Source of the DNA: Lingula anatina
Taxonomy: Eukaryota > Animalia > Brachiopoda
Length of the DNA: 64,000 nucleotides
NCBI GenBank assembly: GCA_051362555.1
Contig: CM120641.1
Location: 37,702,401 to 37,766,400, forward strand
Direction: 5' to 3'
Position 1 is the first letter of the stretch. Each line of letters opens with the position of its first letter. Shown piece by piece: positions 4,257 to 31,543 of this stretch. The notes below the pieces were generated by a model that was given only the letters and a program-made list of their open reading frames with translations, did no database searches and was not told the origin of the DNA. A program made the position numbers and the translations under genes.

Positions 4257-7200
4257 ATGGTGGACTGTAGAGTTGCCTGGAAAAGTAGTTTTGCCTTCTT
4301 GGTTTGTTTTGTCGTCGGCTGTCATGGAGTTGCTCATTATTATATAGGAACAGGGATCGCTGATGTTACGGGACCCGCGGCAGAAGTTGATATGGTATAA
4401 GTGGACATCTCGAGTAATGTTTTTGTCTCGAATGTTGCCTAACAACCAAGATAGTGGCCGACAAATGACGATGCTTTTTGGTCCCCGAAAAGCCACTTAT
4501 GATAACACGAAAATGATAACACTTTTTTAATGAATTTTATATGTGGTTGGCTATTAGTTTATTGATAAGTAAATGGTGTCCTTTTGTAAAATGCATGAAG
4601 TCAAGCGAAAACGATATATGAATTATATCCAAGTGTAAGCTTATGGTTACAATTTGTCTTTGGATTTCAGATGTTTTAATTAAAATTAGTAAAAAGAAAC
4701 CATAGATATTTTACATAACAATTTTATGGTTGATTTTAGATGGGCTATGCCAATCCTGCCCAGACAAGCCATGGAATCCATCTCCGCCAGTACAGCAGGG
4801 CATTTATTATTGCTGATGCTGCTAAGAAGTCTAGGGTAGTCTTTGTCAATGTTGATGCATGTATGATATCCGAAATTTTGAAAATACAGGTACAGTTTAA
4901 AATTAGATAGGAAATTTAAGGTTAACTCATTTTGCATTGAAATTGTTTCTAGTAGTTATTTTGTGCATGTTTTTAATATAATGGATTTTCTTATATATAT
5001 ATATAAAAAACTTTAATGTTACTCTTTCATTGACCCAAATTATGTTTAAGAGTCAATTTGACTTCTATATTTAAATACTTCTTATATTTATGTTGGAATA
5101 GATACAATACAGTATTTCTGTTTGTTTCATTTGTAAGCATAACTTCATAATTTTCATATTTTGTGGATACAAGAAGATGTGAATAAAAAACAAAAAATAT
5201 TTTAAAAAGTTGTTGAATTCCACATATTGTAGAATTTCATTAGATTAGACTTTGACTTGTTATGAATTACCTATTCAGTTACATATTAACTTGGATGGCA
5301 TCACATTGTTTGTATTTAGGTAGTCCAAAAGCTGCAAACATTATATCATGGTCTTTACAATGATTCTAATGTCTGCCTAAGTGGAATTCATACTCACTCT
5401 GGACCTGGTGGATTCCATCAATATGTGTTGTTTGACGTCACATCTCTTGGCTTTGTGAAGGAAAGTTTGGATTCTCTAGTGAATGGAATTGTGAAGGTAA
5501 GCCTTTAATTCTTTGGGAATGGGTCTTTCTACATGTAGGTATTAAAATTGTAATCATAGAATCAAGAGGAAGATTGACAAAGCACAGTTATACATATGGT
5601 TGCAATATACTGTCATAAACAAGTTGGATTGGTGCTGTCACCAGGATAAAGCTTGCACTCACATATATATATCCAACATTGTAGACTGCTACATGTACTT
5701 GTGCTCAACAAACTTTTTTTGGATTTAACATACATTAAATCAATGAAAAACTATTCTTCTGGCTTTCTTTTACATATAATTTAATCCCCATTGCAAAGAA
5801 AATTGTTTCTTATCATTTGGTTCTGAAAGCTGCCATGGTTTCAGGCCAGGAAGAGGCGTGTCAGTCAGTAAAAGTCCCCACATAATTGGAGTGATCTACA
5901 TAGACCGATAGTTTCTTTGAAAAAGGGGGTCTTATTGGTGCACCTCACTGAGGTCCATCCACCAATATTATAAAATCATATTTTCTGATAAGCATGCATT
6001 TTTGGCCCTTTAATTTCACATGGTACACATGTCACAATGCTGTTAACCTTCTTCTTTTTTGAAGACTGTTGATGTACAAAATTAGATATTCTAATTATAG
6101 AGCATCCAAAATGCCCACAACAACATGGTTGCAGGAAATATTTACATCAATACAGGAGAACTGTTGGATAGCAACATCATCCGCAGCCCTTCCGCATACC
6201 TAAATAACCCAGCAGAGGAAAAGGCCAGGTGAGAATTAATCGTGACTTAGTAAAAAAATTCAGGTGTTATTCTTCATATTTTCTTACAAAATATGGATTT
6301 CCTTCCAGTAAATTTTTTGTCTGCATTGTGCTTATTTCTTAAATGGATTGGATATTATATTTGACATTATCTTATGATTGATTGTGCTCTTTATCTCGTA
6401 ATCATCTCATGTTACTTTATTTTATAGATACAAGTACAATGTGGACAAGAACATGACTGTTTTGAAATTTGTTGATGAAAACAGCAAACCTCTCGGCATG
6501 ATCAGGTATATTCTTTATCTACCCTCTTTTTTGATCTTGAATTTTACCTGCCATTATGTTTGTCTTATTAAAGAAGCAGTGTTTCTTAAGCATTTCTCTA
6601 ATAAAGTTACTTTTTTTTTCACAAATGATCATAAAATTTTGTAAGAAGAAGAATGTCATAATAAAGCTATAGAGGTTAATATTTAAGAAGGCAAATACTC
6701 AGTACAATCCATTTCCAGCTGGTTTGCTGTTCATTGCACCAGTATGAACAACACCAATGGTTATATAAGTGGAGATAACAAAGGATATGCAGCACAGCTG
6801 TTTGAAAGAGAGATGAACCCAGGGAGTCTGCCAGGAGAGGTAAATCTGGGACATTTGGTTGTAAATATTGTATTCATATTTGGACACTCTATCTTTCTTT
6901 TGTATGTATGTACCCAATGTATTCCCATTCCAACATGTTTGGTTGATGAAAGAATTAATTAAGCTTTAATTGTATGTTAAAAGGTCTTTTTTTTATTTCA
7001 CATGCAAGAAGATAGAAACTGATTAAATGCACATAAATGTCATGTGTAAATTTATAAGCTGTCACACAGTTTACTGCTGTCATGTTCCTGAAATTTTTGC
7101 CTATCCTATCACTTGACTTTTATTAGGGGAAGTTTGTGGCAGCTTTTGCCCAGAGTAATGAAGGTGATGTATCTCCAAACACCAAGGGACCGCACTGCAT

Positions 7201-10200
7201 CAACACTGGGAAACCATGTGATATCTTGACCAGCACTTGCGAAGGAAAGGTATGGGACATGTCTCACATATTGAAACTCGTGCAGAGTTGCCTGATATGT
7301 TATTTACTGCATCCAGTACCATTTTAGCAATAGTTATTGTAGAATGCAAGAATTATGATTCTTATATAACTTGGTCAAGCATAGGAGTTATCTACCAATC
7401 CAAGCTCCCACCTACTCAATGTGCTGATCTGGTTTATGTAAGATTTACAAGATTAACAAAGTCTCTTTTTCCTGCTGTTTTTTTTTTTTTTTTTTTTTTT
7501 TTTTTCAAGAAATAAGTCTATCCAAAGATGTAAATGTATATCATTTGTAGGATAAAATGTTGTTGGAGATAATCATTCCACTTTAGTTGTAACCCTCTGT
7601 TATGAGTATAACTTTTGTTAAATACTTTCAGAATGAGCTTTGTATCGCATCAGGTCCAGGAAGAGATATGTATGAGAGCACAAAGATTATTGGAGGAAAC
7701 CAGTTCAAGAAAGCAAAAGTAAGTTTTATGTACCACAGATTTACACCAGCAATTTATATATATATTACTGTAAACCTTTACATAATGTCTGATGTATTGA
7801 AATAGAACAAGAAATTAAAAGTTCATTTAAATGTAATGATAATCTTTTACAATAATATCAATGAAAAAAGGACCTCACTGATGCTGATTAAGCACACAGT
7901 TATAGCTCTTTTATACAAATATGCCCAATCACTTGTTTTTCCTGTTTTTTTCCACAGGAATTATTTGATAGGGCCAGCACTCTTCTGACCGGTCCAGTGG
8001 ACTACAGGCATCAGTTTGTGAACATGTCCATCCAGATTGTCCAAGTAAATGCCACACATAATGTAAGTAATGCATGTGATGGGAGTATTGCTTTTATAGT
8101 ATTACACAATATCTTAGACTGCATCTTTTTTTACTTAAATCACTATTAATAGTGATTTTTAAGGTTGTAATGTATTTTAACAAAAGTGATTTTTTTCAGG
8201 CCACTACTTGCCCTCCAGCTATGGGATATAGTTTTGCTGCAGGAACAACTGATGGGCCAGGCATGTTTGACTTCACACAAGGTGAGTTGCAGGCATGCAA
8301 ACAATTTTTTCTCTCTACTTAACATATTTTATGTAAATATTTTTAAAAAATCTTCTGACACTTTTTTAAAGAGCCAAACTATTATTATTAATGTAAGTAA
8401 AATAATTATGATGTTCAGGTTGTCTCATATTTTGGAAATATAATCTTTCAATATTTTGAACAATATTTTAATAAAATTTTTTTAGATAGAAATACTTTGA
8501 GGATACTAAGTACCAGAAGGCATACTGCTTAGATATGTTGTGAGAAAATTAACAATATTCAAATTCTATCACTATGTTTGCTTGACTGTTGCCCTTGAAG
8601 GAATGTCTTTTTTTGCTTAAAAATCTTGAGGAGTAAGAAGCGGTTATGTTCATAACTGCAAATTGGACCAGACATTGGGTGCAGTTTTTTGTTTTTACAT
8701 ATTTAGCTCATATTCTTCTTAGCATACCAGTGCATGCTCACAAGTCTACAAATGTGTATATGTACATTTTGCTTGACAAGGTTCTCGGCAAACCTCATTA
8801 TTTTGGAATGTGGTAAGAAATATGGTCAAGAAGCCAAGTTCACACCAGGAGCAGTGTCATCATCCTAAACCAATACTTCTTGATACTGGAGAGGTAGAGG
8901 AGGGACATGCATGCCACAAGATGTCTGAATGAACATAAATAACCTTTTTTACCCTGGGGAATGCACTTTATAAGATAGCACAGACTTTCTCTACTTCTTT
9001 ACAGAGACTTATGTCATTCATCCACAGTTTTCTGATTTTATAAATGAATTAGATTTTTATAACATCTTTGAAGAGGAAAAGTACTTGTATGTCAATTTTT
9101 TTTTAAAGTATTTGATTCAAAGAACTCCAATTTCATCATCATCATCATCATTTAGAGCCTATAGTGTTCCACTGTTGGACAAAGGCCTCAGCATGCTTTT
9201 TCCATTGTTTCCTATCCTGAGCCTCAGATTTCCAGTTTGGCCAAGGTTTCTTCTTCCAAGACTTCCAGTAGTCATCTAATTCATCCCTCCATCGTTTGAC
9301 CGGCCTTCCTCTTTTTCTTTGTCCATACCTTGGGATCCATTCTGTAAGTCTGATTGTCCACCTATTGTCCTTCATTCTTTTGACATGTCCTGCCCACCTC
9401 CATTTCATTTCTTTAACTGTGAGCAGTACGTCCTTAACTTTGGTCTGTTCACGTAACCATACATTCGAACTCCAATTTGTCATTATTGATATCCATTTGA
9501 CAACCTCTTCAGAGATGTTATTTTTTATTCATCTTCTTAATATCTGCATGCTAACGTCTCCAAACAATTCAAGCATGGCTCCATTTTGCACTCTCAAATC
9601 TGAAAATGGTTCCCTGAAGACCTAAAGAATAATGTGCATGTTATCTATCCCTTCTAACACGTTCCTCACATGTTTATAGGTTCAACTACAAGCAACCCAT
9701 TTTGGAATGTTATCCGTGACTTCTTATCCAAACCCACTCCTCAACAAATTAAGTGTCAGCATCCTAAGCCCATCCTCTTGAACACAGGAGAGGTAAGTGT
9801 GAAAACCTGTTGCATCCAGTTTTGGATCCATAATTTATTACAAGGCCATAAAAGTGATACTGATTGAGTAAACACAATTGCTTAAAAATTAAATGAGATG
9901 GTTTGAACAGTAGATTTTTCTTTTTAGCTACTTACATGATATTTGAGTTTGATAGTATTCTACAGGTCCATAAGTGCAAACCTAAAACTTTCATGTTGAT
10001 TTTAGTTTGCCTCTTAGACTAATGAAAATTTTATTTCTTGTAGTGATTTTTGGTCATTAACGTTCTCACAATATTGTGTGGTTTTCAATAGATTTCTTTC
10101 CCATATCCATGGCAACCAAGTGTAGTTCCCACTCAGATTCTGAGGATTGGGGAGCTGATGATACTAGCAGTTCCTGGAGAATTTAGGTAACTTATTTTCA

Positions 10201-13200
10201 GTGGGGATATGTATTTATCCTGAAAGACCAAATCAAACATGACTGTTATTAGCATTGTTATTCAACACAGAAAATTTATGATGGATAATATAAGTAAAAA
10301 AATTGATGAAACTCTGATTTGTTCAAGTTTTGGAAAAATAGTTTTGATTTTCTAATCTTTCAGCACCATGTCAGGAAGAAGGTTGAGAAATGCAATTACT
10401 GAGGTAGCAAATATATACACCTTTATTTTATAAGTAATATCGATTGTAATATAAGGCCGTAGGCCTAATTTACAGAAATAAAGACCTTATTTAATATAAT
10501 TGATGAAATGTGCAAATTATGAAATACATGTGTTAAAACCAAACATCATACTCACTGCAAATAATACATAACATCTCACATTTAGTGTAAATTTAACCAG
10601 ACAAAAATTTGACTTGCTTTAGTTGATATTCCATGCAGCAAAACTTGCTAAGGGATACTTCAGAGCTGTATGCGACATTTACATCATTAGATAACTAGAT
10701 AAGTTTTATACTACTTCAGGAATTTTTTTTTTTTAGATTGCCATCCAGCATGGTTTCCCCTCCAACACCACCACTGTTGTTGCTGGACTGTCTAATGCCT
10801 ATGCAGATTACATTGCAACATATGAGGAATATCAGGTGAGTCTGAACAATGAAAAATATGTATTGAGTTCATGTAGATTATCAATAAAAAACACAATGAA
10901 ATTCAATTCAAAAGCTTAATTATCACAATGTCACAATGTTGAGCTTACATCTGCCATGCTTCTTGCCCTCCCACAAACTGATGTAGACAAGACTGACCAA
11001 AAAGTGAGATTTTTACTGTTTGTTATTCAGGAAACCTTTTATTTTGCACTACACATACTAGCTGATTAGTTTTTTGTTCACTTCGTGAAAATAGTTGAAG
11101 AGTATAGAGATTTTCTTACTTCACTGACAAATTGGGTAATAAAGTTTGTTTGTAAAATTCTTCAAGGTTAGTGTAAAGCCTAAAAGTTGAATGTGAACTT
11201 AGATTTTGATTCTGTATTTCAGATTCAGAGATACGAAGGTGCATCAACCATATTTGGCCCCCACACATTACAGGCCTATATTCAGAAGTTTAAAACATTG
11301 ACTGTGGCAATGGCTAGGGTAAGGAACAGGAGGGACTATGAACCCAGACAGCCTCAGTAATCTGGCCCACGTCTGGCCCAGATCTGGCAACGTCTGGCAA
11401 TATCTGGGCCAGATTTTGCCAGACACTTGCCAGATCTGGGCCAAGTCTGGCAAAGTCTGGCATTTATGCCACATTTTGCCAGACACTTGCCAGATCTGGG
11501 CCAAGTCTGGCAAACTCTGGCATTTATGCCACATTTTGCCAGATGCTGCCCAGACTTGGGCCAGATATGGTACTTTCATTTTCAATTTTTATTTTCTATT
11601 TATTTATTTTTTATTGACCAGTGAGCTGAATGCATTGAACTGACGTCATTTGATAAATATTGATTTAATTAATCTCTCTCTCTTTTCTTCAAAGTCCCCT
11701 CATAAGTGTGCTATTTGTTTAATTTGACTTGACATTTGAATGAATTCACTGTTCTAAAACTTTTTTGAACTACTCGTTCCGCTGTTGTAAGATTCCGCTT
11801 TTTATGCTAAGCCGGTCAAGGACCCGGATGTAGCGTTTCTTAGAGTTATGGATATGAAAAAAGCACAAGTGTATCAAACTGATAATTTGTTGAGTGATTT
11901 GATTCGTGATGCGATTTATTTCGAAGGCATCAACACTGGCGACGAGGATTAACACTAGTGCAAAACTGTGAGCCAACTTTCTTTGAAAAAATGGAGGAAA
12001 AATGTGAAATTACGAAATTCGAACCGTACAGAAGTCCGGAGACATTAGGGTCACGCTCGACGCGATGGCTAGACAGTTTTAAACTCTTCGCTGACGGAAA
12101 AGATTGATCTTTTCAAAACCAACGGACGGCATGAATAATGAACAAAAATAGAAAATTAAAAATACATGATAGAGGAGACGCGCGCTTATGTTGTATTCAG
12201 CAGGGACAGGTGTACAAGATATTTTCAGGACTCTCCCAAACACGGGTTAGAAACATTAGACAGTTAACGCTTTGAATGAAATTGGAACACCAGAAACTGT
12301 GAGTATGATGAAACCGAAGTCATTTGACAAACCAAGCCAGTCTAAACATTACGAGTTTAGACATGAAAAACGAAGTAGAAACTCCCTGACTGAGAAAACA
12401 TGGAACGTTGGATCACTTTGCAAAAGTCTGCAAAACTGAAACTATTATTCATGTAAATGACAGCTTTGAACATGATAATCCAGGAGTGCATATACATTTG
12501 GTGTGGGAACCAATGCAATATACACAGAAGACATGGAGGAAATAGAGGCGGTGTTAATCTCAGTGTATTACCAGATTCAGGTGCATATTGTAATATCATT
12601 GATGAAAATACATGGAGAATGCTGAAATCCAAGAAAAATAAATGTGGCTCTTGTGGAGGACTAGAAAACAAACAGTATTATTCATACACGTCTGAGAAAC
12701 CTTTAAAAGTGAAGGGAACATTTGAATGTGACGTAAAGGAAGAGACCAGTAGTAGTGAAAGGAAATGGGATTTGATATGAGTTGATAAGTTTTGAGAATT
12801 TTCAGTGTGGTTTAAGGAATAAAAGTTGGAGTTCATATGCTATTCTGCAAATGTTTGAAAGGACATTTTAAAGACTGAACTGTCAATAAACATGTTTTGA
12901 AAGGACCGTTTCTCTCCAAGAAAGGAAGGGATGTTGTGTTTTGACTTGACATTTGAATGAACTGTTAACTTGGTAGAGCTACTTGTTCCATATTGTTGAT
13001 TCCTTTAATAATTATAAGCTTGTCAAGATGTATCATTTCTTAGTGTTATGGATTTGAAAAAAGTGCAAACATTGCAAACTGGTTCAATTCATTGAGTGAT
13101 TTGATTCATGATGTGATTTAATTCAAAAGCATTGATACTGGGGTTTGTTTTTGTGCACATGTAATTCTCTTTTAATTGTACATCTATATCTGTGCTGGAG

Positions 13201-15783
13201 TATACATATTTTTTTTTTCAGAATTTACATGTATGTACAGTACTGTAGCCAGCATGCAAGTTGAATTGAAACAGTTACTGCATGGTTATTTATAATTTTG
13301 TTATAACTCACCATCATCTAAAAAAACAATGTTTTTTCATTCATTATTCAAGATTTATTCATTACAAAACTATATTCATTAGTGATTATTATTATTAATG
13401 ATATGTTTGAATTAGTTTAAAAATGACAATGTGTGCAAAAATATTTCCCCCTCAAACCCCTCCCCCATGTACATGCATGATTAATTACAATTTTTGTAAT
13501 TTGTGTTAATTCAGATTCGATGAGCAGCTTTGTGTTGAAAAAAAAATTGTTGTTATAACTGTTTTCTTTACATGTATGTAAGTGACATTTCCTCCTGTTA
13601 AGTGTCTGTATATTTGCCTTTTTGCAGTGTAGTTTTTTTTTTTTTTTTTTTCAAATATACATTGTTTTGTACAAAAAGACAAGGAGTGACCCTTAATTTG
13701 TTACATGTTAGTTGCCAGCAAGGTTATATAATGTGTAATAATTTTGTTTAGGGTTTTAGCACAGAATAAATACTTGAATCTTGAATCTTGTATGTCTTTT
13801 TTTATAGTAATCTTATTGAATAATTAAAAATAATTTTAAAAAAAGAAAAAAAAACATTCTGGGCCATATGTGGTCCATGTCTGGCCCTAATCTGGCCCAT
13901 TTGAATATGATCTGGCCCACATCTGGCCCACATCTGGCATGCCATACCTTTGCCAGATATTGCCAGATCTGGGCCGACATCTGGCCATATGAGCAAATGT
14001 GGACTGGGCCAGATGTGGCAATGTCTGGGCCAGATCTGGCCCAAACATTGCCACATCTGGCCCACATGTGGCAAGCCATACGTGGGCCATACCTTTTGCC
14101 AGACATTGCCAGACGTTGCCAGATCTGGGCCAGACGTGGGCCAGATCACTGAGGCTGTCTGGGGAATGTACATCTCATTTAGCAACTAAAGTCAGCCACT
14201 GACAATGAATAAGAATTTTTTTATCAAAAGGGAAGAGAAAGAAATGTATGAAACTCATCTTTAGTTGTCATAAAAGGTACATTTCCCTTTTTACATTACA
14301 TCTGTTTTTGCTTTAAGTGTTGTCAGATAAATTAAATATGAAAAATGCTTATGAAATTTATGAAATTGAAAGTTAAAATCCTTAGATTTTTTTTTACTTT
14401 TTTAGGGGTCTCCTGTGCCAGTTGGACCTAGTCCTCCAAATTTTATGAAGGAATTGTTTTCTTTCCTACCTCCTGTGCTGTTTGATCATGCACCAATGGG
14501 ACAGAATTTTGGTGATGTTGTCAAAAAGCCTAACCCTAAATATATGCCGGTAATTATAACAGAAATTTTATATAAATTCTTTACTTAAAATATGTAATCA
14601 TTTGTTTGGAATAGAAATCACTAGATTAGAATTTTTAAAACTGTGTCAATGTCATGACTTCAAAAATATATATAAAAATCATCAAATGGAAGAAATAACT
14701 TGTGGATTATACAAGATTCTGAAGTGTATAATCTCACTTTTGTTAATTTGTTAGAAAGCACGTTGATTTATATTTTCCAGGGAGGTACAGTAGAAGTTTC
14801 CTTCATCAGTGCAAACCCCAGGAACAACTTAATGGTAAGGGTAACAGGCCAATGACCATCAATTTCAGAGGGGGTTCTTTTTCTGATAAAGTGGACCTTT
14901 TTATCCTCTTAGTTAATCCAAGTTCGGAAATGGCATAGAACCTAGAAGAAATATTGATCCAGAATGGACTTTTACTAACCAAACGATTCGTTATTTTGAA
15001 CCCCTAACCCCCATTGCCTATGTGCCTGGGTGATTGGGGGGGGGGGGTAGTTTAAAGAAATCCAAAGGCGTGTAAAGTCATACAAGTCTTGTTGGGATAA
15101 AACATACATAGTTTGCTGCCTTTCTTGAGTTTTGTTTAGTATATGTTGGTGATTTCAGAGTGGTAAGAGTTACCTCACAGTGGAGATGAAACAGGGTGAT
15201 GGAAGCTGGAAAACTATGTTTACTGATGCAGATTGGGAAACAAGGTAACCAAGTTACATAATTATATGTTGTTGTAATACAGTAAAAGCTAGCAGTCACT
15301 TCCGACATACTCATAGTTAACTGGCTGAATTATGTGTAAAAACAGTGTAGTAAAAGCTAACGTTTATTGCATATTAGTAATAAACTGGGTATTTACAAAT
15401 ATACGTTTAGGTGACAGTTGAGGTGGTGCTTTGCAGTCAAATTATTTTTCAGTATTTTTGTAAAAAATGTAGATGGTAATTAAGCTTTTGACTTAAATTT
15501 CTTGTTTAGTTACCATTGGGAACGCACATCCACAATACTCGGGGAAAGCATTTCTGTTATCACATGGAATATACCTGATCAGCAGATGCCAGGCACCTAT
15601 AGAATACGCCATTTTGGATCATCAAAAAGCATGATTGGTGGCTCCATAACTCCATTTGAAGGCTCCACAGATATATTCCAAGTTGCAGCATCTCCCCTGT
15701 CCGAGAAGAAAGGCATTCAAAGCTATTTGAAGTTCTTGAAGCATGTCAAGCTGCAGTCAGAACTTACTGAAAATGTAGCGTAA
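4257..15783 (+). CDS. ASAH2: Neutral ceramidase copy 1 (19 coding exons per transcript, about 729 aa)
   Basis: Exons 4257-4394, 4740-4889, 5320-5496, 6101-6228, 6428-6505, 6719-6839, 7127-7249, 7632-7718, 7958-8062, 8200-8281, [8781-8893 or 9680-9792], 10092-10186, 10364-10403, 10737-10835, 11223-11318, 14406-14549, 14781-14834, 15159-15244, 15510-15783 sum to 2190 nt, open throughout. Motifs: GIADVTGP..MMGYA, SGIHTHSGPGG, WFAVHCTSMNNTN..ISGDNKG, NEGDVSPN, AMGYSFAAGTTDGPG, PGEFSTMSGRRLR, YEEYQIQRYEGAST, GTYRIRHFG. Confidence 0.96.
8781..8893 (+). CDS. ASAH2: Ceramidase 1 alternative exon 11a (duplicate of 11b)
   Basis: 113 nt, AG/GT flanked, phase 1 to 0. Encodes GSRQTSLFWNVVRNMVKKPSSHQEQCHHPKPILLDTGE with no stop or indel relative to 11b. 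Confidence 0.8.
9134..9466 (-). mobile_element. 5'-truncated RTE-clade LINE insertion
   Basis: Translation KWRWAGHVKRMKDNRWTIRLTEWIPRYGQRKRGRPVKRWRD...W..AQDR.QW is the typical RTE ORF C-terminus. It has a (TGA)n 3' tail and a perfect 12-bp target-site duplication GAACTCCAATTT at 9122-9133 and 9467-9478. Confidence 0.9.
9680..9792 (+). CDS. ASAH2: Ceramidase 1 alternative exon 11b
   Basis: 113 nt, TAG/GTAAGT flanked. Encodes GSTTSNPFWNVIRDFLSKPTPQQIKCQHPKPILLNTGE and is the closer match to the single exon 11 of copy 2 (24670-24782). Confidence 0.9.
11343..14163. mobile_element. Non-autonomous DNA transposon with CCCAG termini and subterminal ~11-bp repeat arrays (EnSpm/CACTA-like), in ceramidase 1 intron 15
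   Basis: About 59-bp TIR CCCAGACAGCCTCAGT(A/G)ATCTGGCCCACGTCTGGCCCAGATCTGGCAACGTCTGGCAAT at both ends with one mismatch. GAA flanks both ends (11340-11342 and 14164-14166). TCTGGCCCAGA-type repeats fill 11360-11570 and 13858-14145. The matching intron of copy 2 is only 286 nt. Confidence 0.85.
11707..13137 (+). mobile_element. Internally deleted Gypsy-type LTR retrotransposon relic nested in the DNA element
   Basis: Diverged ~200-230-bp direct repeats (~11707-11935 and 12932-13137). PBS TGGCGACGAGGAT at 11937-11949 is complementary to the 3' end of tRNA-Ser(GCU). PPT AAGAAAGGAAGGGA at 12918-12931 precedes TG. Gag-like fragments RWLDSFKLFADGK and RRRALMLYSAGTGVQDIFRTLPNTG, and protease motif LPDSGAYCNIID. 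Confidence 0.85.
14845..15028. mobile_element. MITE family A copy
   Basis: Runs CAGGCC..GGGGG TTCTTT..AAAGTGGACCTTTT..GAACCCC..TGCCTATGTGCCTG. Flanks are GGTAA and GGTGA. Confidence 0.6.
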
Positions 15784-18042
15784 AAGCCAACATAATTGAA
15801 ATCCAAATTCAGATTGCCATACATACGAGTGTACAGTTATTCTCAAGGGTAAATGTTTTGTTAAAGTATTTTAAAAAGTTGTACACATATTGATGTGATC
15901 AGCTGCTATCGATAAGCCAATATTTAAGCAGATTATATATAAGGAAATTGTACTGTGCAATTTTTAAATTGCACTGAGTAATTTTTAAATTTTAAATTGT
16001 ACTGTGCAATTTTTAAATTTTAGGAATTAAAATTCCTAAATATTGCTAAATTTAGTATTTATGATTATTCTTTTTTTCAGCCACTGTGTATTTATTGTTC
16101 ATGTGTTCCTTAAAATGTATAATATTTAAACAATCAAACTAAATTAGACTTTTGTCGTAAAGAAGTGATGACACTCAAATGAAATCATAGTTTTAAAATT
16201 TCTTTTTTCTGATCATGCAGTTAGTGATAAATTGCAGTTTTCTTTACCATCATATTAAGTCTTTCAGCAGTAAAACGTTAGAATGGCACATGCGAATTTT
16301 GCAATATAAAGTCGTATGTTTATCAATTTAAAAATCTTCATTTGTGTCTTACGTTATGCCTTTCTACTTACTAAAACCATTAACTCAGGTATTTTTTATC
16401 GTACTTTATTTGGTCATCATTCAGATAATATACTTTCCTTATGTTTTCAATTTCTTAAATCAGATGAAACTTTATGATCGTTGACGGTAAAACGAAATAA
16501 AGGAAAATTGAAGCAGTGCATGGTGTTTTGAGAATATCCCCCAAGATTTATCAATTTTAGTCACGACTTCACCAAGACCAACAGCTCCTGTACTATCTGG
16601 CCACAGGTTGCGCTAGTAGTCTGTTACAAAATTGTTATGGCTCGTATTTTAATTTTGTATACTGTTTCAGAAGTCCTTGCTCCCTTCAGTTACGAAACTT
16701 GTGATTTTTGTTATGGACCTCGTTCGCGAAATCGACTTTTCAAACAAAATTTGCGATCAACACTAACGACAGCCGCTTGGAAGAAAAGCGCCGCTGCTTT
16801 CTGAAGAACAGACACGCATTCTTTGAATACCGCAAATGCATGGATCAGGGGCTTTTGGGGGATCCATTACGATTACTGTCAGTTTATATAATATGTATGT
16901 GAATGTGTCAGTTTTGGTATATTACTAAATCGTTTTATTTCCCAGGTCGCCTGACGACTGATTTTGTACGTCACTCATGGACGTTTCGTTTTTACTTTAA
17001 GTCTAGGTGTGTTTTATATATGGGTGTATTTTTTTCACGCACCGCAACAAAGTCATTTCAAAATGTAGGCCTAACATTGTGGAGATGAAAAACGTAGTGA
17101 CAGTTACACGATTTTCAGTCATGTCTTACCTGTCGTAAATTATGGGCATTTACGTGGGCTGCTATCCAAGACGGTGAATACATAATGCACGTCAGTGTTT
17201 GAAATTATACCTCATAGTCAATAGTCGCCCATCCCTCCTAAGACGGACTCTCGCGTAAAAGAACAGTTATGATACTCGGGCCACGATGGCTTTTAAATAA
17301 TGACAATAGAGTTTCGTGTGTTTTTGAGAGCGGATGGTGATTTACGCCAACAGACGTACTGTATGTCAAGGTGGATAATTTTAACCACTTTTTTTTCCAT
17401 AAATAGCACCATGAACTCAATTGTCGCCCCCCTCTGCATAGAGAAAAGACGAACAGTAACGGAGGCATTTTTGTTTGTTATGCTGTTAAATCGCCAAATT
17501 GATATGACCCCAAAGAGCTCAATTAAGCCCGTTTGCACGCACACGTGCATACAGGTTAAATTCAGTCTTCCACACCCGCGTCGCATCAAAACCAATTGTC
17601 ACTCATTTATAACCAATAATTGGTTTTGATTTTTCCCTGGATACTCAGCGTTATTTGCAGAATAGGTGATTGTTTTAAAAGAATATCTAAACAAGAATTG
17701 ATGTTAATAATGATGGTTCTTAAAAATTCTATACACCCACCTTTTACAAGGGACACAGATTGATTTATTGTTTATCGAATTTTTTATATTGACATTCACA
17801 GATATGGCTAATTCATGACAATATTTTGTACTGTCCAACCAGAATTTTGATATGAAATTAATGCCATCGCTCAGTTGGCCTTTTATAGAGTACTACTTTG
17901 CATACACCCACCGTTTTAATTCACGACCCTTGAGCTTGGGAAGTAGATCCCTATAAAGCGCCAGCAAGCTGGCCCAGTTTAGTTTGTTAAGTTACACCTC
18001 GATGAGCTGCATGTCATAAAATCACATATGTGCTTGACCAAA

Positions 18043-18183
18043 ATGGTGGACTGTGTGTTAGCTAGGCATATATTGTTTGCCTGTTTTTTAGCTTGTTTGG
18101 CCACTGATTGCCAAGGAGTTGCTAATTATTACATAGGGACAGGGATCGCCGATGTTACGGGACCAGCGGCAGAAGTCAATATG
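18043..18183 (+). CDS. ASAH2: Ceramidase 2 alternative first exon 1a (signal peptide)
   Basis: Encodes MVDCVLARHILFACFLACLATDCQGVANYYIGTGIADVTGPAAEVNM, then donor GTAAAC. A TATA-like CTATAAAG lies at 17951-17958, and there is an in-frame upstream ATG at 18028. Confidence 0.8.
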
Positions 18184-21100
18184 GTAAACCTTTTCTATTA
18201 TGTCTTATGTCTATTTTTGTTTTTCCGTGTTTTCAAAAGACAAAATGAAACTAGGCCATTAATATAATACAATTTGTTCACATACTGTTGAAATTTAGAC
18301 TTAAACTTTGATCAGAAAGAAAGGCATTAGATTACAAGAGTGAAAATTGAAACGCTTTTGACTGACATATATGAGATTGATATTGAACATTTTTGTTGAT
18401 GTTTGTTTTGCTGGTAACGGGATGATAAAATGAGAAAAGTAACTTTTTCTTTAATCTAAGTTGGTTTGATTCCGACTTTCTCTGACTGATGTTTTACTGT
18501 TAGGTTAATGATCTATATGATACATTTATAGCGTTAGTGAAATATTTAATAAGTGCCAAACGATCCAAAAACAAAACACTACATGGTTTTGAATTTATGA
18601 GTTTTTACGTCTATTAGTATCACCCGAAAGTATACGTATTGCTTTTAGGAATGGAAGATATATTAATAAAAACGTTGGGATATTTTGCATAACTTGTTTT
18701 TTAAATCAGCATAATATTTGCGGAGTTTTCAGTGATAATCATATTCAAATCCTTAAACTGAATGTAAATTAAAATCATGTACATTTCAAATTGTGTACAA
18801 AATTCCCCTTTTTGGAAACAAAGAGATAAGCTTTCCTCATAAGGATGTGGATGTCGATTTAGTCCTTACAAATAGAATATAATGGATATATTTGAATATG
18901 ATTTATTTAGCATTTACAACACGAGTCGTGCACTCAGTAGACGATGAGTAGTTGTAACTGACTTATCCCACGGCTGACGCTTCGAAAAACAGGATGAATG
19001 TAACGAAGAGTATGAAAATACAGTGGAGCGTGTAAGTGAAATACAGGTTGAATTATCCTATTGTTCGAAGCGCCGGCTGTAGATAAGTTAAGAGAAGTGT
19101 TCTACGGAGGTCCATCCGCCCACCATTTAACTAGCCCCGAAAAAGTGCCAGCTGGTTGACCCGGTTTAGATGTTTACATTGCACATTTAAGAGATACGTG
19201 TCTATGTCATAGAATCACTTATACTGGTATAATTGACCGAAATGGTGGACCGTGTATCAGCCTGGAAAATCATTTTTCTTTTTTATTTGGTCACTGGCTG
19301 CTATGGAGTTGCTTATTATTACATAGGGTCAGGGATCGCTGATGTTACGGGACCAGCAGCAGAAGTCAATATGGTAAACCTTTTTTTGGAGTTTTTTTTT
19401 TTGTTTTGTTTTGCGTTAATTTGTAATTCTACTTTCAGAAAAAAAATAAAATAAAGGTTTTAATAGTTCTGTGCAAATAGTGTGAGAATTCGGCTGTGGT
19501 AGTAATGGTTAGGGGTGGTGTGTGTGTGTGTGTGGGGGGGGGGGGTCGGCTGTTTCTTTCGCCGTGTGTATGCCTAAATTCTGTTAAGTAATTAATATTC
19601 TAATTATTCTAGACCAAGACTTAACTGAGTTGTTTTCATTTGCGATACACTAATTTTTAAACCACAAATTGACCTTATTCGCTTTTACTGGACTCATGAG
19701 GGTGGCCGTTACCATAGGCAGAGTAATAATATACAATTAAAAACATTAACATCCTTTCTTAGTCCGAGTTCTCTCAAAGAGACTAATATTTTTTGCAATG
19801 GGGGTGAATTTTCGCCGGTTCCTCAACACATGTTGTATGTGCCCGCTGTTATATTTTCGCCTAAGCTCAATAGTGCGGATTATTATAATTGTCTAACGCT
19901 TTTTCTTAAACTTAACGAAAAAGAGCCAGGGAAGAATGCATTATAAATAAGGAATAAGCAGAAAAGAAACACTGAGAGATCATGCATTTGTCTTTTAGAA
20001 AAAGAATTTGATGGAATATTTCTATTCTATTATTTTGTATTATTGATCTTTTGATTTATTTACTTACATGATGACACCCTACCAACCTTTTCGGCCTGAT
20101 CCGCATCCCTCGTTTTTGTCTGCAAGTGATTAAGCAAAAAGACTCACCTGGTTTGTCCAAACTATTGTCCGGTAATAGACGCGGGAAAGTATAGTTTTTT
20201 CAGTGTGTTTAACTTATCAAAAATGTTACTGATATGACCAAATGGTAAGTCAGAAGGTGTGGTAAATGGATCTTATTCCGTCTGTCATATTTGTCAGTGA
20301 GGTGGGACTAAACTTTTTTAGTCATTTTGACTACGTTTTTTTTTCGACTCAGTGAAATATCTCTCGACCCCCTTAGGTTCCCCCCCCCCCTTTTTTCTTT
20401 TCAAAAAGATGAGGAAAACCACAAAATGATGTCACGTATCGGGAAATTTCGTTCGTTTACTGGACTTATTTCTTCTCTTTCTTTTATAAGCAACATATGA
20501 TATCCAGTTTCAACACACGTGGAAAAAAAAAACGTAGTCGTTCAATTGTCATAATAATTGTGTCGTTGATTTTAGATGGGGTATGCCAATCCATCCCAAA
20601 AAAGCCATGGGATCCATATGCGACTGTATAGCAGGGCATTTATTATTGCTGACGCTGCTAAGACGTCCAGGGTAGTCTTCGTCAATGTTGATGCATGTAT
20701 GATATCTGATATTATGAAAAAGAAGGTAAAGTTTATAAAAAATATCCACGAAAAATATTTTGTGTTAAAACAGTGCTAAGTACTCTCAACCAATATCATT
20801 TTCTGTGATAATTTGGACTATTTTAATTTAATAGGGTAGAGTTGGCTCTCCAGCGTGTTGCACAGTGTACTACACTTCTTAATATTTGTAGTTGCATTAT
20901 TGTAATTCAAAATATCTCGATTATTTTCACAATTGTAGTTCATTTTTAAAGTTTATCAATATTGCGGAATGCAATGTAGAATAGATTTTTGTCTTCGATA
21001 AATATTACACAGATTATGGACCGTTCGTGCAACATGGAAATGAGATAAACAAAAAAGATCTGCCGTCCGTCATTGTCATTTTCCTGTAACAATTTGCCAA

Positions 21101-21315
21101 ATTTGAAAAATAAAAGGATGATACACATAAAGCCAAAAAAAAAAAAAAAAGAACAGTATTATATCACTTGGTGATTATTCTATTTTGATTTTATTTTTAT
21201 CAATCTATTAATCAATTTATTTCGTATGATTCTATTCGCGTAAAAGCGCGATTTTGGGGCAGAAATTACAATCCAGTTATCAAAAATGATGACATATTGT
21301 TTGAGACATAATTAT

Positions 21316-21359
<44 letters not shown>

Positions 21360-24300
21360 GGTTGCTAATAAGCTGAAGACTCTCTACAATGGTCTTTATG
21401 ATGAAAGCAATGTCTGCGTGAGTGGAACCCATACTCACTCTGGTCCTGGGGGATATCACCGGTATGTGTTGTTTGATGTCACATCCCTTGGCTTTGTGGA
21501 GGAAAGTTTGGATCCCCTTGTTGATGGAATAGTGAAGGTAAGACTTACGTACCATAAGGGTATAGGTAGAGCTACTAGAGGGATTTGCCACGCCCTTCAA
21601 CCGCCGTCTGTTTAAATATAGCAGTCCCCCTACCGTTATCCCGTTATCCTGTTGCGCTTGTTGTATTTTGTCAGCATTTGTATTCTTTCTCTTTGTTTTA
21701 GTTATAGTATTAACGAAGAAATCAATTAAATATCTACGTCCACCGAAATGCATGTGTACGTCATGTAACAAGTACAGTTGAAAGAGAACCCTTCAAGCTC
21801 TTTTTGGAATATTCACTAGAACTGCATGTATACTCATTTGTGTAAAGTCTTTACCACGATACGGTTCTATAGTCCCACGGTTCATTGGCCGAAAAAATAT
21901 GGTTATTTTAAAGTTTACTGTTTTGAAATCCAACGTCGGTTTTAAGAATTTTATACACCAAAATATTAATATCTGGAAATTTCAACGCCCCTTTCGTAAT
22001 CATCAAGGTAGACCCTACACTGTAGTGTATCCAAAATGACATTTTTAAGTCCGGTTTTGAGATCTAAGTTTTTGATGTTCGAGTCAATCTTGTAATGAAG
22101 GCGGGTAGTTGTTGTCATGATAGTGAAAATTAAAATTTTAAGTTCAGAAATAGGTTTAAAACGCATTTTTTTTCAGGATTTTTGGATGGGGTTACTTGTG
22201 ATTAACGGCAAATTTTTAGACTTTCCAGAAAAACCATTCATTTATATAAACGTCAAACGTGCATTGTATACGTTGAAACACCTTATCTTGAAGAAAGTTG
22301 GAACAAATAAGAGAATCTTTGGACCATTTATTCCCTGGACTTTTCAGTCGTCAAGCCAATGAACTTTTATTCCTATTTTTTTAACAAGCAAAAATGTTAT
22401 ATTTTCATATTTGTAGGATCAATGAAACCTTCTGATTAATGAATCCCAGGACTGTTGAAGCAAAAATAACTTTTGAATTTTGATTTTTTCTTGACATTGC
22501 TGTTCTGCCAAAGTAAAATTTTGAGAGCTTTTGTTATTTATTATAAACCTACCAAGGAAAAAAGATTCCCCTTTTTAAATAATTTTAACAAGTGGGAATA
22601 AAAACTTAAAGAGTCAGGCAATGTGTTATCTTTTTGATCATGATAATTCAATCACAAAATATAAGTCAATTTAATTATAGAGTATCCAAAATGCCCACAA
22701 CAACATGGTTGCAGGAAATATTTACATTAACACAGGAGTACTTCTGAACAGCAACATCAACCGCAGCCCTACTGCATACCTGAATAACCCACCAGGAGAG
22801 AAGGCAAAGTAAGTACAAAAATATAACAGAAAATTTCAAGAGTTCATATTTCACATTATTTCATATTTTTAAAAACAGTATGGTATATAAGAATATAGCA
22901 TTTGTTCCTGAAATTTTTTATACTTTTCATATTGATTTTTTTTTCAATATGAATTTTATAGATACAACTACAATGTGGACAAGGACATGACCGTTTTGAA
23001 ATTTGTGGATGCAAATGGCCAGCCTCTTGGTATGATCAGGTCCGTATATCACATTTAATGATATTTTCTTTATTACAGTTACTACTGTAGGGTTTTATTC
23101 CTTGATAACAAAAAAAAAAAAAAAAAACAATCAAATGGTGGAGTGTTTTGTATCTTGGTAAACCCTCAATCCTTACAGATCTTGTCTTATCAAAAATAAT
23201 ATCTGATTCTGTGTATTATTTTAATCATAAAGAGATATGCAAACACTCCTAACACTGTATTTTCAGCTGGTTTGCTGTTCATTGCACCAGTATGAACAAC
23301 ACCAATGGTTATATAAGTGGAGATAACAAAGGATATGCAGCACAGCTGTTTGAAAGAGAAATGAACCCAGGGAGTCTGCCAGGAGAGGTAAATCTGGGAC
23401 ATTTGGTTGTTATGTCACTTATATTTGGACACTGTATCTGAAAGTTGAATATAGTTTTTTTTAATTTGTCAAAATAAAAAAATCAAAAGACATAAAAAAG
23501 AAAAGGACAATGCTACAAAAAGAAATACAATTACAAAATTATTATTATTTTTTACATGATTAAATGGGTTGCACTGTTTGGTTAGGGGAAGTTCATAGCA
23601 GCCTTTGCCCAGAGTAATGAAGGTGATGTGTCTCCAAACACCAAAGGAGCACACTGTATTGATACAGGGAAACCATGTGACGTCTCAACCAGCACATGCA
23701 ATGGAAAGGTATGGGACACGTTTCCATATGTCTTATTGAATACCACTGAATTAACTACTCACATATTTAATCTTTATTTGAATATGTATTCCTGCATGAC
23801 AAATATACAGAACTATTTTCTGAATATCTTCAGCCTGAGCTTTGTGTTGCATCAGGTCCAGGGAAGGACATGTATGAAAGCACAAAGATTATTGGAAAAA
23901 AACAGTACAAGAAAGCGAAAGTAAGTTAAATATGCCAATCTCCTTTTTTTAATTACTTTGTGAGATTTCAAGTATTTTTAACCATAATGTAATTTTTGTA
24001 TTACTTTGCATTTAAAAAAACGTTTTCTAATATTGTAACCATAATGTAATTTTAACATACTTGAAGAAATATAAAAACCATGATGTGTAGTTTGTGCATA
24101 ATATTTAATATTTTTTCACAGGAATTATTTGATAGTGCGAACACTCTTCTGACTGGTCCAGTGGACTACAGGCATCAGTTTGTGGACATGTCCAACCAGA
24201 AAGTCCAAATTGATGCCACTCATTATGTAAGTTTATGTATATATTGAGTATAAAAATTGTTTGTACTGTTTACAAAAGTAGTGTTTACATTTATTTCCAC

Positions 24301-24542
24301 ATCTCGTTATACAAAATAATTATAGAAACAATGTCACTTGAACAGTTGTGGTGTGATATTTGCTACCCTTTGTACAAACATAGTTCACAGTAGATTATTT
24401 TCAGGCCACTACTTGCCCCCCAGCTATGGGATATAGTTTTGCTGCAGGAACCACTGATGGGCCAGGCTCGTTTGACTTCACACAAGGTATGGAGTCTTTA
24501 AAAGTGTATTCTTCTTTTGAATTAGTCATTTCAATTTTCATA

Positions 24543-24586
<44 letters not shown>

Positions 24587-26089
24587 AAGGTATACAGCTG
24601 AGATTTCTGGTAAGATGTATGCCATCAATAATCTTTTAAAAATTAAAAAAAAAACTTATTTATTTGAAGGTACTACCACTGGTAACCCATTCTGGAACTT
24701 CGTGCGTAACATTTTATCTAAACCCAGCCGAGCACAAATCCAGTGCCAGCACCCTAAGCCTATCCTCTTGAACACAGGGGAGGTATGTAAATGCATTCTC
24801 TGAGTGACTTGTTAATGTTCAAAACATTATGGTATCCTAATGCAAAAATGCTACATGGTTAATTTGAATATATCTCTAATGCAATTTTGGTTTTTCCAGT
24901 TGTTTTCCTCAAAATCTTATTTGTATTGACCAACTTGAGTCAGAATTCTAAAATGATAAAGGTACATAGTATTTTTGTTTACATCCCTTTACTTACTCGA
25001 CCCTGATGATTCCCTGTGTTGCTACTCCACCTCTGGTAAAAACTAATTCTTAATTTCAAAAATAATTGTAAATACCTGGACCCAAAAATGGCAACTATTT
25101 TGATTTATCATAAAAAAATGATGAGAATAAGAAACAGTGCTGGAGAGGATCAACACAGGTGCAGGGGAATATCAATGTGGATAATATCATTACTTTTGGT
25201 AGGGGGAATAATGATGTGGAGAAGTAAAGTGAGGGGGACTAACATTGTGAGACAAAAGGGGTAGATGCCTTATTTTTGAAAATTTAATGGACTTTTCATC
25301 AGATGTCCTTCCCATATCCATGGCAACCAAGTGTAGTTCCCACTCAGATTCTGAGGATTGGGGAGCTGATGATACTAGCAGTTCCTGGAGAATTTAGGTA
25401 ACTTATATTCAGTAGGGATGTGTATTTCTCTAGATAATTTGTGAAATTCTACTGAAAACGCAATATATGAAAAAAGCAAAAAAGTTAATAAACTATCCTG
25501 GCTTCTTTATTGAGTTTCAGTCAAGTGCATGGTGGTGCATAAACTCCTATATTCTGAGCCATGATTATGACATACCAGTACATGTACATGAATATATCTG
25601 AAAAAATAAAGAATGTTTGTTTCAGTAACATGTATCTACTTCAGTAGAGGTTAGTAATGCTCTATATTTTTGCAATGCTTGTTAATGAAATAGATTATGT
25701 GATGTTGCTTTTTTTACCTTATATCAGATTAAGGATATTATCCTTATTCCTCCATTAATCTTTCAGTACAATGGCAGGTAGAAGATTGCGAAATGCTGTC
25801 ACTGAGGTATGGTTTATTTGTATTAAGATGATAACTTGTAAAAAAATAATTATATCATGCAAAAGAGAACGGGTTCTTAAAATTATATTTTAGGTACATG
25901 ACACAGTTCATTGTAAATGATGCTGTCTCATGTTCAAATTTCTTGTGTATTTTATTTAACACAGACAGTATTCCTGTTGAGGTAGATAAATTAGTTAGTA
26001 TTTCCCCCCTCCCTCCCCCAATAAAAAAATTGTGAAGAGAATTGTGTTATTCAAAAACCACAGAACTGTGACAAATTACTTGATAATAT

Positions 26090-26145
<56 letters not shown>

Positions 26146-31334: not shown

Positions 31335-31504
31335 CTAGTCGTTCGATTTGTCGCCGTCGTTGTCACCACATGGTCCGGCTGTATTACCGATCCACCTTGG
31401 TTCAGCAACGGTTATTTTCACACAGCGACCAGGGCCAATAGTAATGTCAACTTGCTGGACAGGGCACTTAACAAAATATATCCAAAGGGTAATTAATAGG
31501 GATG

Positions 31505-31543
<39 letters not shown>

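What the first reader, a model, noticed from the sequence alone, without database searches (positions are those of the whole stretch)
8781..9792. Duplicated, obligately mutually exclusive exon pair in neutral ceramidase 1
Seen: two homologous exons of exactly 113 nt with the same phase, intact AG/GT sites and no stops. They encode GSRQTSLFWNVVRNMVKKPSSHQEQCHHPKPILLDTGE (11a) and GSTTSNPFWNVIRDFLSKPTPQQIKCQHPKPILLNTGE (11b). Because 113 is not a multiple of 3, including both or neither shifts the frame. The DNA is strongly diverged while FWN, KP, the Cys and HPKPILLxTGE are kept, which points to selection on both. Copy 2 has only an 11b-type exon closer to 11b than 11a is, so the exon duplication probably predates the gene duplication and 11a was lost from copy 2. 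Inference: this segment follows the AAGTTDGPG loop and, as I recall the human enzyme structure, borders the hydrophobic ceramide pocket, so the swap could switch lipid-substrate preference. I know of no described mutually exclusive exon in ASAH2-family genes, but I cannot search for one.
Basis: partly seen in the sequence, partly recalled or inferred. Interest (0 to 1): 0.85.

Follow-up and report, generated by a model that had tools for sequence, protein, structure and literature searches.

The report
Switchable pocket-helix exon in brachiopod ceramidase
A ceramide-splitting enzyme gene of the lamp shell Lingula carries two versions of one exon, RNA reads show that each message uses one or the other in proportions that differ sharply between samples, and the swap replaces a helix beside the lipid pocket, which likely tunes how the enzyme handles its lipid substrate.

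Summary
Exons 11a (8781-8893) and 11b (9680-9792) are homologous, 113 nt, same phase; either gives a 729-residue neutral ceramidase, both or neither a premature stop. The gene is from Lingula. RNA reads from 8 of 9 listed runs show all four predicted junctions and no both-in or both-out junction. Use differs by sample: 11a:11b is 28:15 in study P1, 2:74 in P2, 0:43 in P3. The exon equals human G472-E510, the alpha8 half of the eta2-alpha8 element plus Cys498. 11b is family-typical with a strong donor; 11a keeps all nine invariant residues but has smaller helix hydrophobics, the weakest acceptor, and UGCAUG motifs placed as for RBFOX control. No such pair was seen in 19 clusters of relatives, in the human tandem-exon list or in print. 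A substrate switch is untested; three amino-acid-changing alleles in 11a hint at looser constraint; the order of duplications is unresolved. Verdict: a genuine, apparently undescribed member of a known kind (homologous mutually exclusive exons at an enzyme pocket), so far seen in one genus.

The parts
4257..15784 (+). Neutral ceramidase copy 1, 19 coding exons with exon 11 in two versions, 729 residues, N-terminal hydrophobic leader
   Evidence: Exon model and open frame; exon 3 is 100% identical to a partial Lingula anatina neutral ceramidase
8200..8281 (+). Exon 10, constant: Cys448 equivalent and the AAGTTDG loop (eta2 half of eta2-alpha8)
   Evidence: spliced to 11a or 11b
8781..8893 (+). 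Exon 11a, the divergent alternative; weak AAG acceptor, GTAGAG donor
   Evidence: Junction reads 10>11a in X1 9, X2 4, X3 15, X5 2; 11a>12 in X2 13, X3 11; acceptor scores below all 34 constant sites, donor above 6 of 34
9680..9792 (+). Exon 11b, the family-typical default; GTAAGT donor, CTAAC 25 nt before the acceptor
   Evidence: Junction reads 10>11b in 8 of 8 runs; donor above 32 of 34, acceptor above 4 of 34
8731..8736 (+). UGCAUG, 50 nt upstream of 11a
   Evidence: role inferred
8908..8913 (+). UGCAUG, 15 nt downstream of 11a (position that typically activates)
   Evidence: role inferred
9545..9550 (+). UGCAUG, 135 nt upstream of 11b (position that typically represses)
   Evidence: role inferred
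9635..9640 (+). UGCAUG, 45 nt upstream of 11b, next to the likely branch point
   Evidence: role inferred
9134..9466 (-). 5'-truncated retroposon-like insertion between 11a and 11b, with a (TGA)n tail and a 12-nt target duplication (9122-9133, 9467-9478)
   Evidence: (D12); reads here carry many differences and loose ends at 9467, so come from other copies; no Pfam match; the label LINE is from recall
10092..10186 (+). Exon 12, constant
18043..29044 (+). Neutral ceramidase copy 2, tandem paralogue with two alternative first exons (18043-18183, 19242-19373) and a single exon 11 (24670-24782)
   Evidence: matches the two named isoforms P0121 and P0003, which differ only in the leader

Best explanation
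Exons 11a and 11b are a duplicated exon pair of which each full message uses one, with 11b used in all samples and 11a switched on in some, and the swap replaces the alpha8 helix beside the lipid pocket, which likely changes which ceramides enter or how fast. Shown: both isoforms are spliced at both ends, in frame, and their ratio differs between studies. Inferred: 11b is the default because its donor and branch point are strong and the 11a acceptor is weak; an RBFOX-type factor binding UGCAUG just downstream of 11a and just upstream of 11b would turn 11a on and 11b off in one tissue or stage; both-in and both-out messages would be removed by nonsense-mediated decay. Inferred for the protein: all catalytic residues lie outside the exon and both versions keep the disulfide cysteine and PKPILL strand, so both should fold and work; 11a replaces the NP helix cap by SL and the helix hydrophobics I, F, L by V, M, V, which would loosen the mouth of the pocket.
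For: Junction reads, 8 of 9 runs laid: 10>11a 28 against 10>11b 15 in P1, 2 against 74 in P2, 0 against 43 in P3 (Fisher p 3e-18 on pooled reads); 11a>12 13 and 11 reads in X2, X3; no 11a>11b or 10>12 row in either call. 11a reads carry two alleles at three sites in X2 and X3, so more than one haplotype uses it. Frames. Splice-site scores. Four UGCAUG within 150 nt of the two exons, Poisson p about 0.001-0.002, motif chosen after looking; positional rule; UGCAUG near 11 of 29 worm clusters and decay needed for 14. Exon = human G472-E510 by hand count on the alignment, inside Ala451-Ile487 plus Cys498; helix predicted at residues 401-410 of copy 2, model TM 0.92-0.96 to 4WGK. 11a has M at helix position 14 in 1 of 168 and V at 15 in 0 of 168 distinct family segments. 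Precedent: coq-2 exons switch substrate; variable residues of such exons cluster near functional sites.
Against: No activity data. The hydrophobic changes are conservative, and V at position 15 occurs in 8 of 139 segments picked for likeness to 11a. All 3 listed 11a alleles change a residue, while the 3 listed 11b alleles of P1 and P2 counted (9702, 9708, 9789) are silent (Fisher p 0.1; differences that match copy 2 were set aside). 11a scores second lowest against a profile of 26 animal proteins. No 11a-like exon was found in any other organism. X1 shows 9 reads into 11a but under 3 out of it. Tissue and stage of the runs are not known, and P3 carries several fixed differences, so population and tissue are not separated. 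11a also has a UGCAUG upstream, which does not fit a clean activation rule.
Confidence: 0.45

Rival explanations
1. The two isoforms are functionally near-equivalent: the duplicate was kept because it is spliced in some tissue and must fold, and its variable positions drift under relaxed constraint.
For: 3 of 3 listed 11a alleles change a residue, all at variable columns; long 11a branch, 0.57 against 0.11 for 11b; copy 2 and all sampled relatives do with one exon.
Against: A strong sample-dependent switch and motif clustering are not needed for neutral redundancy; the exon has lasted to synonymous saturation.
Confidence: 0.25
2. The swap changes something other than chain selectivity: docking on membranes or micelles, stability, or overall activity, giving one tissue a differently placed or damped enzyme.
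For: The first 19 residues carry net charge +4 in 11a against +1 in 11b, with the same hydrophobic moment of the helix (1.84 against 1.85); variable residues of such exons are mostly surface-exposed (abstract).
Against: Whole-exon charge is equal (+2); the rarest 11a residues are hydrophobic helix positions.
Confidence: 0.25
3. There is no regulated switch: 11a reads come from another locus or from a population-specific haplotype, and the study difference is genetic.
For: No genome is held, so a third copy cannot be excluded; the three studies may be different populations (P3 differs at several fixed sites).
Against: 11a reads match this locus with no other difference and join this gene's exons 10 and 12 at the exact sites; two haplotypes use 11a; P1 runs hold both forms; P2 has 2 reads of 11a.
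Confidence: 0.05

Closest known systems
coq-2 exons 6a/6e of helminths, molluscs and annelids (PMC7434440; abstract and passages read)
   Same: Two homologous internal exons of equal length not divisible by three (134 nt), spliced mutually exclusively, remodelling an enzyme near its substrate site; one family-typical, one derived.
   Different: coq-2e is conserved over phyla and shown by deletion to switch substrate; here the pair is seen in one genus and function is untested.
Human tandem-duplicated exon substitutions in lipid enzymes ACOX1, ACSL6, CYP4F3 (listed in the supplement of PMC8373072)
   Same: Homologous internal exon swap in a lipid-metabolising enzyme. That these swaps alter lipid substrate preference is recalled, not read here.
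   Different: Those events date to chordates or jawed vertebrates in that table; ASAH2 has 0 entries there.
Human neutral ceramidase ASAH2 (PDB 4WGK; review PMC6952831, passages and section 3.5 read)
   Same: Same fold and catalytic residues; the exon maps to G472-E510.
   Different: The described human splice form deletes residues 410-444; it is not a swap and lies elsewhere. The Lingula proteins have a short leader and no mucin stretch before the catalytic domain (alignment starts at residue 25 against human 101).
RBFOX- and decay-assisted mutually exclusive clusters of C. elegans (PMC4165533; passages read)
   Same: Non-3n exons, long flanking introns, UGCAUG nearby.
   Different: Regulation here is inferred from motifs alone.

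Membership tests
Homologous mutually exclusive exon pair | Two adjacent exons of common origin | tested here: met
   54% residue identity over 37 columns, 18 columns invariant with copy 2; 58% nucleotide identity
Homologous mutually exclusive exon pair | Same phase, each alone keeps the frame | tested here: met
   729-residue frame with either
Homologous mutually exclusive exon pair | Each exon is spliced to both constant neighbours | tested here: met
   All four junctions in raw reads
Homologous mutually exclusive exon pair | No stable both-in or both-out message | tested here: met
   No 11a>11b or 10>12 row in 8 of 8 runs, that is under 3 reads or one start each; 6-30% of each run was read; decay could hide such messages
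Homologous mutually exclusive exon pair | Both proteins are made | not testable with these tools
   No proteomics
Homologous mutually exclusive exon pair | Pair conserved in other species (common, not obligatory) | tested here: inconclusive
   No second version in 19 clusters, 91 of 100 members covering the segment, one cluster being Lingula copy 2; best 11a hits at most 70%; no other named brachiopod or phoronid was among the hits and no animal genomes can be searched
Neutral ceramidase (PF04734 + PF17048) | Both Pfam domains and the 4WGK fold | tested here: met
   Copy 2 protein P0003: E 1.7e-232 and 9.3e-57, TM 0.92-0.96; copy 1 matches it exon by exon
Neutral ceramidase (PF04734 + PF17048) | His196, Arg257, Ser354, Tyr579, Tyr591 and Cys448-Cys498 | tested here: met
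   Residues named, placed by hand count, read in both copy-1 isoforms
Neutral ceramidase (PF04734 + PF17048) | Ceramide hydrolysis at neutral pH | not testable with these tools
   Needs an assay
RBFOX-regulated exon | UGCAUG downstream of the activated and upstream of the repressed exon | tested here: inconclusive
   11a +15 and -50, 11b -45 and -135; 4 of 33 constant exons have one upstream and 4 of 33 downstream; conservation and knock-down untested
Dscam-type docking site and selectors | One intron site that pairs with a selector before each exon, better than chance | tested here: not met
   Best common site 8279-8302 at -17.2 kcal/mol, 1 of 13 control triplets is better; intron 10 folds no better than shuffles, z -0.2, and not with this pairing
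Steric or U2/U12 exclusion | Very short intron between the exons, or mixed spliceosome types | tested here: not met
   786-nt intron with CTAAC 25 nt from its end; all sites are GT-AG with ordinary donors; a distant branch point was not mapped

The most novel reading that the evidence does not exclude
Splicing swaps the pocket-gating alpha8 helix of a neutral ceramidase in one tissue or stage and so switches which ceramides it cleaves: the first splice-controlled substrate switch in the ceramidase families, and a natural helix-swap experiment on the element thought to make the animal enzyme more selective than the bacterial one.
Probability: 0.3. Interest if true: 0.7.

Novelty: new member of a known kind. 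Interest (0 to 1): 0.48.

Why it matters
The eta2-alpha8 element is one of two structural differences that a review names between human and bacterial neutral ceramidase. Two natural isoforms that differ only in its helix, in one gene, are a ready-made pair for testing what the helix does for lipid selectivity, which bears on inhibitor design for the human enzyme. It also adds a case where one animal holds both routes to enzyme variety side by side, a duplicated exon and a duplicated gene. If the isoforms behave alike, it is an ordinary lineage-limited exon duplication of interest mainly for annotating Lingula, where no full-length copy-1 protein came up in the protein search.

Tried and rejected
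No whole genome is held, so no search for further copies. A word search with 11a found no candidate, a weak blank because the motif is common in later hits. The region search with copy 2 listed 120 of 2,524 hits and no full-length copy-1 protein. Isoform pairs of amphioxus, Pecten, Patella, Mytilus and Argopecten differ elsewhere; 19 clusters show no second exon version; clusters join only proteins 90% alike and hold only annotated or assembled forms. phmmer with 11a on 1.84 billion representatives gave 157 hits, none above 70%; the three with several stretches are a spurious repeat protein and two fragments with degenerate partial copies. Docking-site pairing rejected as not above controls. 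The 37-column exon tree resolved nothing: AU p 0.12-0.38 for all four groupings. Literature: 'neutral ceramidase' + 'mutually exclusive exon' 1 plant paper, listing only; + 'alternative splicing' + 'isoforms' + 'invertebrate' 0; 'ASAH2' + 'mutually exclusive exons' 0; 'Lingula anatina' + 'mutually exclusive' + 'alternative splicing' 7 papers, 6 listed, none on this gene by title; 'neutral ceramidase' + 'splice variant' + 'substrate specificity' 7 general reviews, listings only. The library lacks most subscription papers and bioRxiv supplements; splicing databases such as MetazExp (listing only) could hold the event unremarked. The two primary structure papers were not held. Earlier scan findings: none. 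The spliced isoforms could not be folded, and model coordinates are not returned, so pocket contacts were not measured.

Full report
Observation. A 19-exon model of the gene gives a 729-residue frame with 11a or with 11b; with both the first stop is at codon 468 and with neither at codon 428, many exons before the end. 11a and 11b are 58% alike in DNA, with synonymous sites saturated (pS 0.84) and pN 0.31. In a simulation of neutral decay, 0.17% of 20,000 exons stayed stop-free with the nine invariant residues at 0.3 substitutions per site and 0.01% at 0.5, so 11a has been under selection since the duplication.

What gene, what animal. Exon 3 is 100% identical to a partial neutral ceramidase named Lingula anatina, a brachiopod. 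The tandem copy 2 (18043-29044) matches the two named isoforms P0003 and P0121, which differ only in the leader and fit its two first exons. P0003 carries both Pfam domains and its model matches 4WGK at TM 0.92-0.96. No full-length copy-1 protein was among the 120 listed of 2,524 hits of a region search, so the exon pair seems unannotated there.

Expression. Nine RNA runs of three studies were listed by species label; eight were laid, 6% of each P1 and P2 run and 25-30% of the P3 runs. Reads over 8281>8781 (10>11a): X1 9, X2 4, X3 15, X4 0, X5 2, X6 0, X7 0, X9 0. Over 8281>9680 (10>11b): 6, 1, 8, 30, 13, 31, 25, 18. Over 8893>10092 (11a>12): X2 13, X3 11, X5 0, X6 0, and no row, so under 3 reads in X1 despite its 9 reads into 11a. 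Over 9792>10092: 11, 19, 7, 22, 16, 26, 12, 20, the P1 figures inflated by copy-2 reads (the copy-2 letter at 9771 in 4 of 11, 19 of 21 and 9 of 11 reads). No 11a>11b and no 10>12 joint is listed in any of the eight runs. Pooled, 11a:11b is 28:15 in P1 against 2:117 in P2 and P3 (Fisher p 3e-18; reads are not independent samples, but all three P1 runs favour 11a and all five others favour 11b). P1 runs also hold copy-2 messages, seen as loose ends at 8283, and the other five show no such row. Tissue and stage are not known to me. 11a reads carry two alleles at three sites in X2 and X3, so more than one haplotype uses the exon.

How the choice is likely made. Against 34 constant sites of the two genes, the 11a acceptor (AAG) scores lowest of all and its donor above 6; the 11b donor scores above 32, its acceptor above 4, with CTAAC 25 nt upstream. 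So 11b looks like the default. UGCAUG stands 50 nt before and 15 nt after 11a and 135 and 45 nt before 11b; four sites in these 600 nt have a Poisson chance of 0.001-0.002, but the motif was picked after looking, is about 2.5 times commoner in this window than base content predicts, and one site does not fit. RBFOX typically activates from downstream and represses from upstream (PMC11874969, passages), and UGCAUG lies near 11 of 29 worm clusters, 14 of which lean on nonsense-mediated decay (PMC4165533, passages). An RBFOX-type switch with decay as proof-reader is thus my inferred mechanism. Steric or U12 exclusion does not fit a 786-nt ordinary intron. A docking site at 8279-8302 pairs with both upstream regions at -17.2 kcal/mol, but 1 of 13 controls does better and the intron's fold does not use it.

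What the swap does to the protein. 11b aligns to 4WGK chain residues 376-412. The crystallised piece is residues 99-780, and counting by hand on the alignment with an offset of 98 recovers His196, Arg257, Ser354, Cys448, Ala451, Ile487, Cys498, Tyr579 and Tyr591. The exon is human G472-E510: the second half of the eta2-alpha8 element (Ala451-Ile487), which the review PMC6952831 (section 3.5 and passages read) names as placed differently from the bacterial enzyme, plus Cys498 of the Cys448-Cys498 bond. That this element walls the pocket is recalled from the primary paper, which was not held. The copy-2 model shows helices at 401-410 and 415-421 and a strand at 426-429 within the exon. All catalytic residues lie in constant exons and are present. 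11b is family-typical (profile score 120.7; 26 animal proteins score 75.5-128.1); 11a scores 79.8, second lowest, yet keeps all nine invariant columns. Among 168 distinct family segments the 11a residue occurs once at position 2 (R), once at 14 (M) and never at 15 (V), 20 (S) or 21 (H); the NP cap is SL. V15 is not unique: 8 of 139 segments selected for likeness to 11a have it. The helix stays amphipathic and its N-terminal half is more basic. I infer a looser pocket mouth and so a change in lipid handling; a change of membrane docking, or no real change, remain open. Against a sharp new function, all three listed 11a alleles change a residue (R>Q, H>R, H>D) while the three 11b alleles counted in P1 and P2 are silent (p 0.1).

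History. Copies 1 and 2 are sisters at 100/100 among 27 proteins that include a bryozoan, a nemertean and 14 molluscs but no other brachiopod. 11b is nearer to the copy-2 exon (pS 0.68, 75%) than 11a is to either (pS 0.84 and 1.05), and 11b and copy 2 share three residues where 11a has the commoner family state; this favours exon duplication first and loss of 11a from copy 2, whose intron 10 is 183 nt and holds no remnant. It is not proven: the exon tree rejects no grouping (AU p 0.12-0.38), and exons 6, 10 and 12 are 95-99% identical between copies, with flanks of 6 and 12 alike too, a sign of conversion.

Elsewhere. None of 19 clusters (91 of 100 members cover the segment; amphioxus, echinoderms, molluscs, flatworms, chelicerates, a sponge, and Lingula copy 2) shows two versions of this exon. 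phmmer with 11a over 1.84 billion representatives gave nothing above 70%. ASAH2 has no entry in the human list of tandem-duplicated exon swaps (supplement of PMC8373072 searched); the described human form is a deletion of 410-444. Five paper searches found no report, within a library that lacks most subscription journals.

Verdict. It works like coq-2 6a/6e (PMC7434440, abstract and passages) and belongs to the homologous mutually exclusive exons, whose variable residues tend to lie near functional sites (PMC7954323, abstract). The splicing switch is shown; its regulator and its effect on the enzyme are inferred. New for neutral ceramidases as far as I could search, but of a known kind and seen in one genus: interest 0.48; 0.7 if a substrate switch is shown, which I put at 0.3.

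Noticed in passing
window 18043-18183 and 19242-19373: Copy 2 has two homologous first exons, each with its own hydrophobic leader; they match the two named isoforms, so a duplicated alternative first exon.
   Followed up: partly
window 6719-6839 / 23267-23387, 8200-8281 / 24405-24486, 10092-10186 / 25303-25397: Exons 6, 10 and 12 are 95-99% identical between the paralogues while others are 63-91%; likely gene conversion, and exon 11 between two such patches is only 75%.
   Followed up: partly
window 9059-9076 and 9504-9521: An 18-nt inverted repeat (94%) flanks the retroposon-like insertion; without the insertion it would be a hairpin with an 82-nt loop between 11a and 11b.
   Followed up: no
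window 8535-8552 and 10057-10074: An 18-nt inverted repeat (83%) spans both alternative exons and covers the likely branch point of exon 12; may be chance.
   Followed up: no
window 15685-15784: Copy 1 has a C-terminal extension of about 30 residues that copy 2 lacks.
   Followed up: no
window 6179-6181: The window reads Ile just before the catalytic Arg where the named partial protein, copy 2 and the human enzyme have Asn: an allele or an assembly error.
   Followed up: no
window 11323-11640 and 13820-14190: Two related GC-richer repeat tracts inside intron 15 of copy 1, matching each other on both strands.
   Followed up: no
window about 48600-60000 (+): Multi-exon family 38 alpha-mannosidase gene.
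   Followed up: partly
window about 31300-32100 (-): Exons with a weak von Willebrand type D match, just under the Pfam cut-off.
   Followed up: no
proteins P0010/P0012, P0122/P0123, P0022/P0147: Amphioxus neutral ceramidases have an optional 37-39-residue basic and aromatic insert in the C-terminal domain, kept across species.
   Followed up: no
runs X7, X9 on window 9718-9768: Study P3 differs from the window at several fixed sites in 11b, two of them changing residues; it may be a separate population.
   Followed up: no
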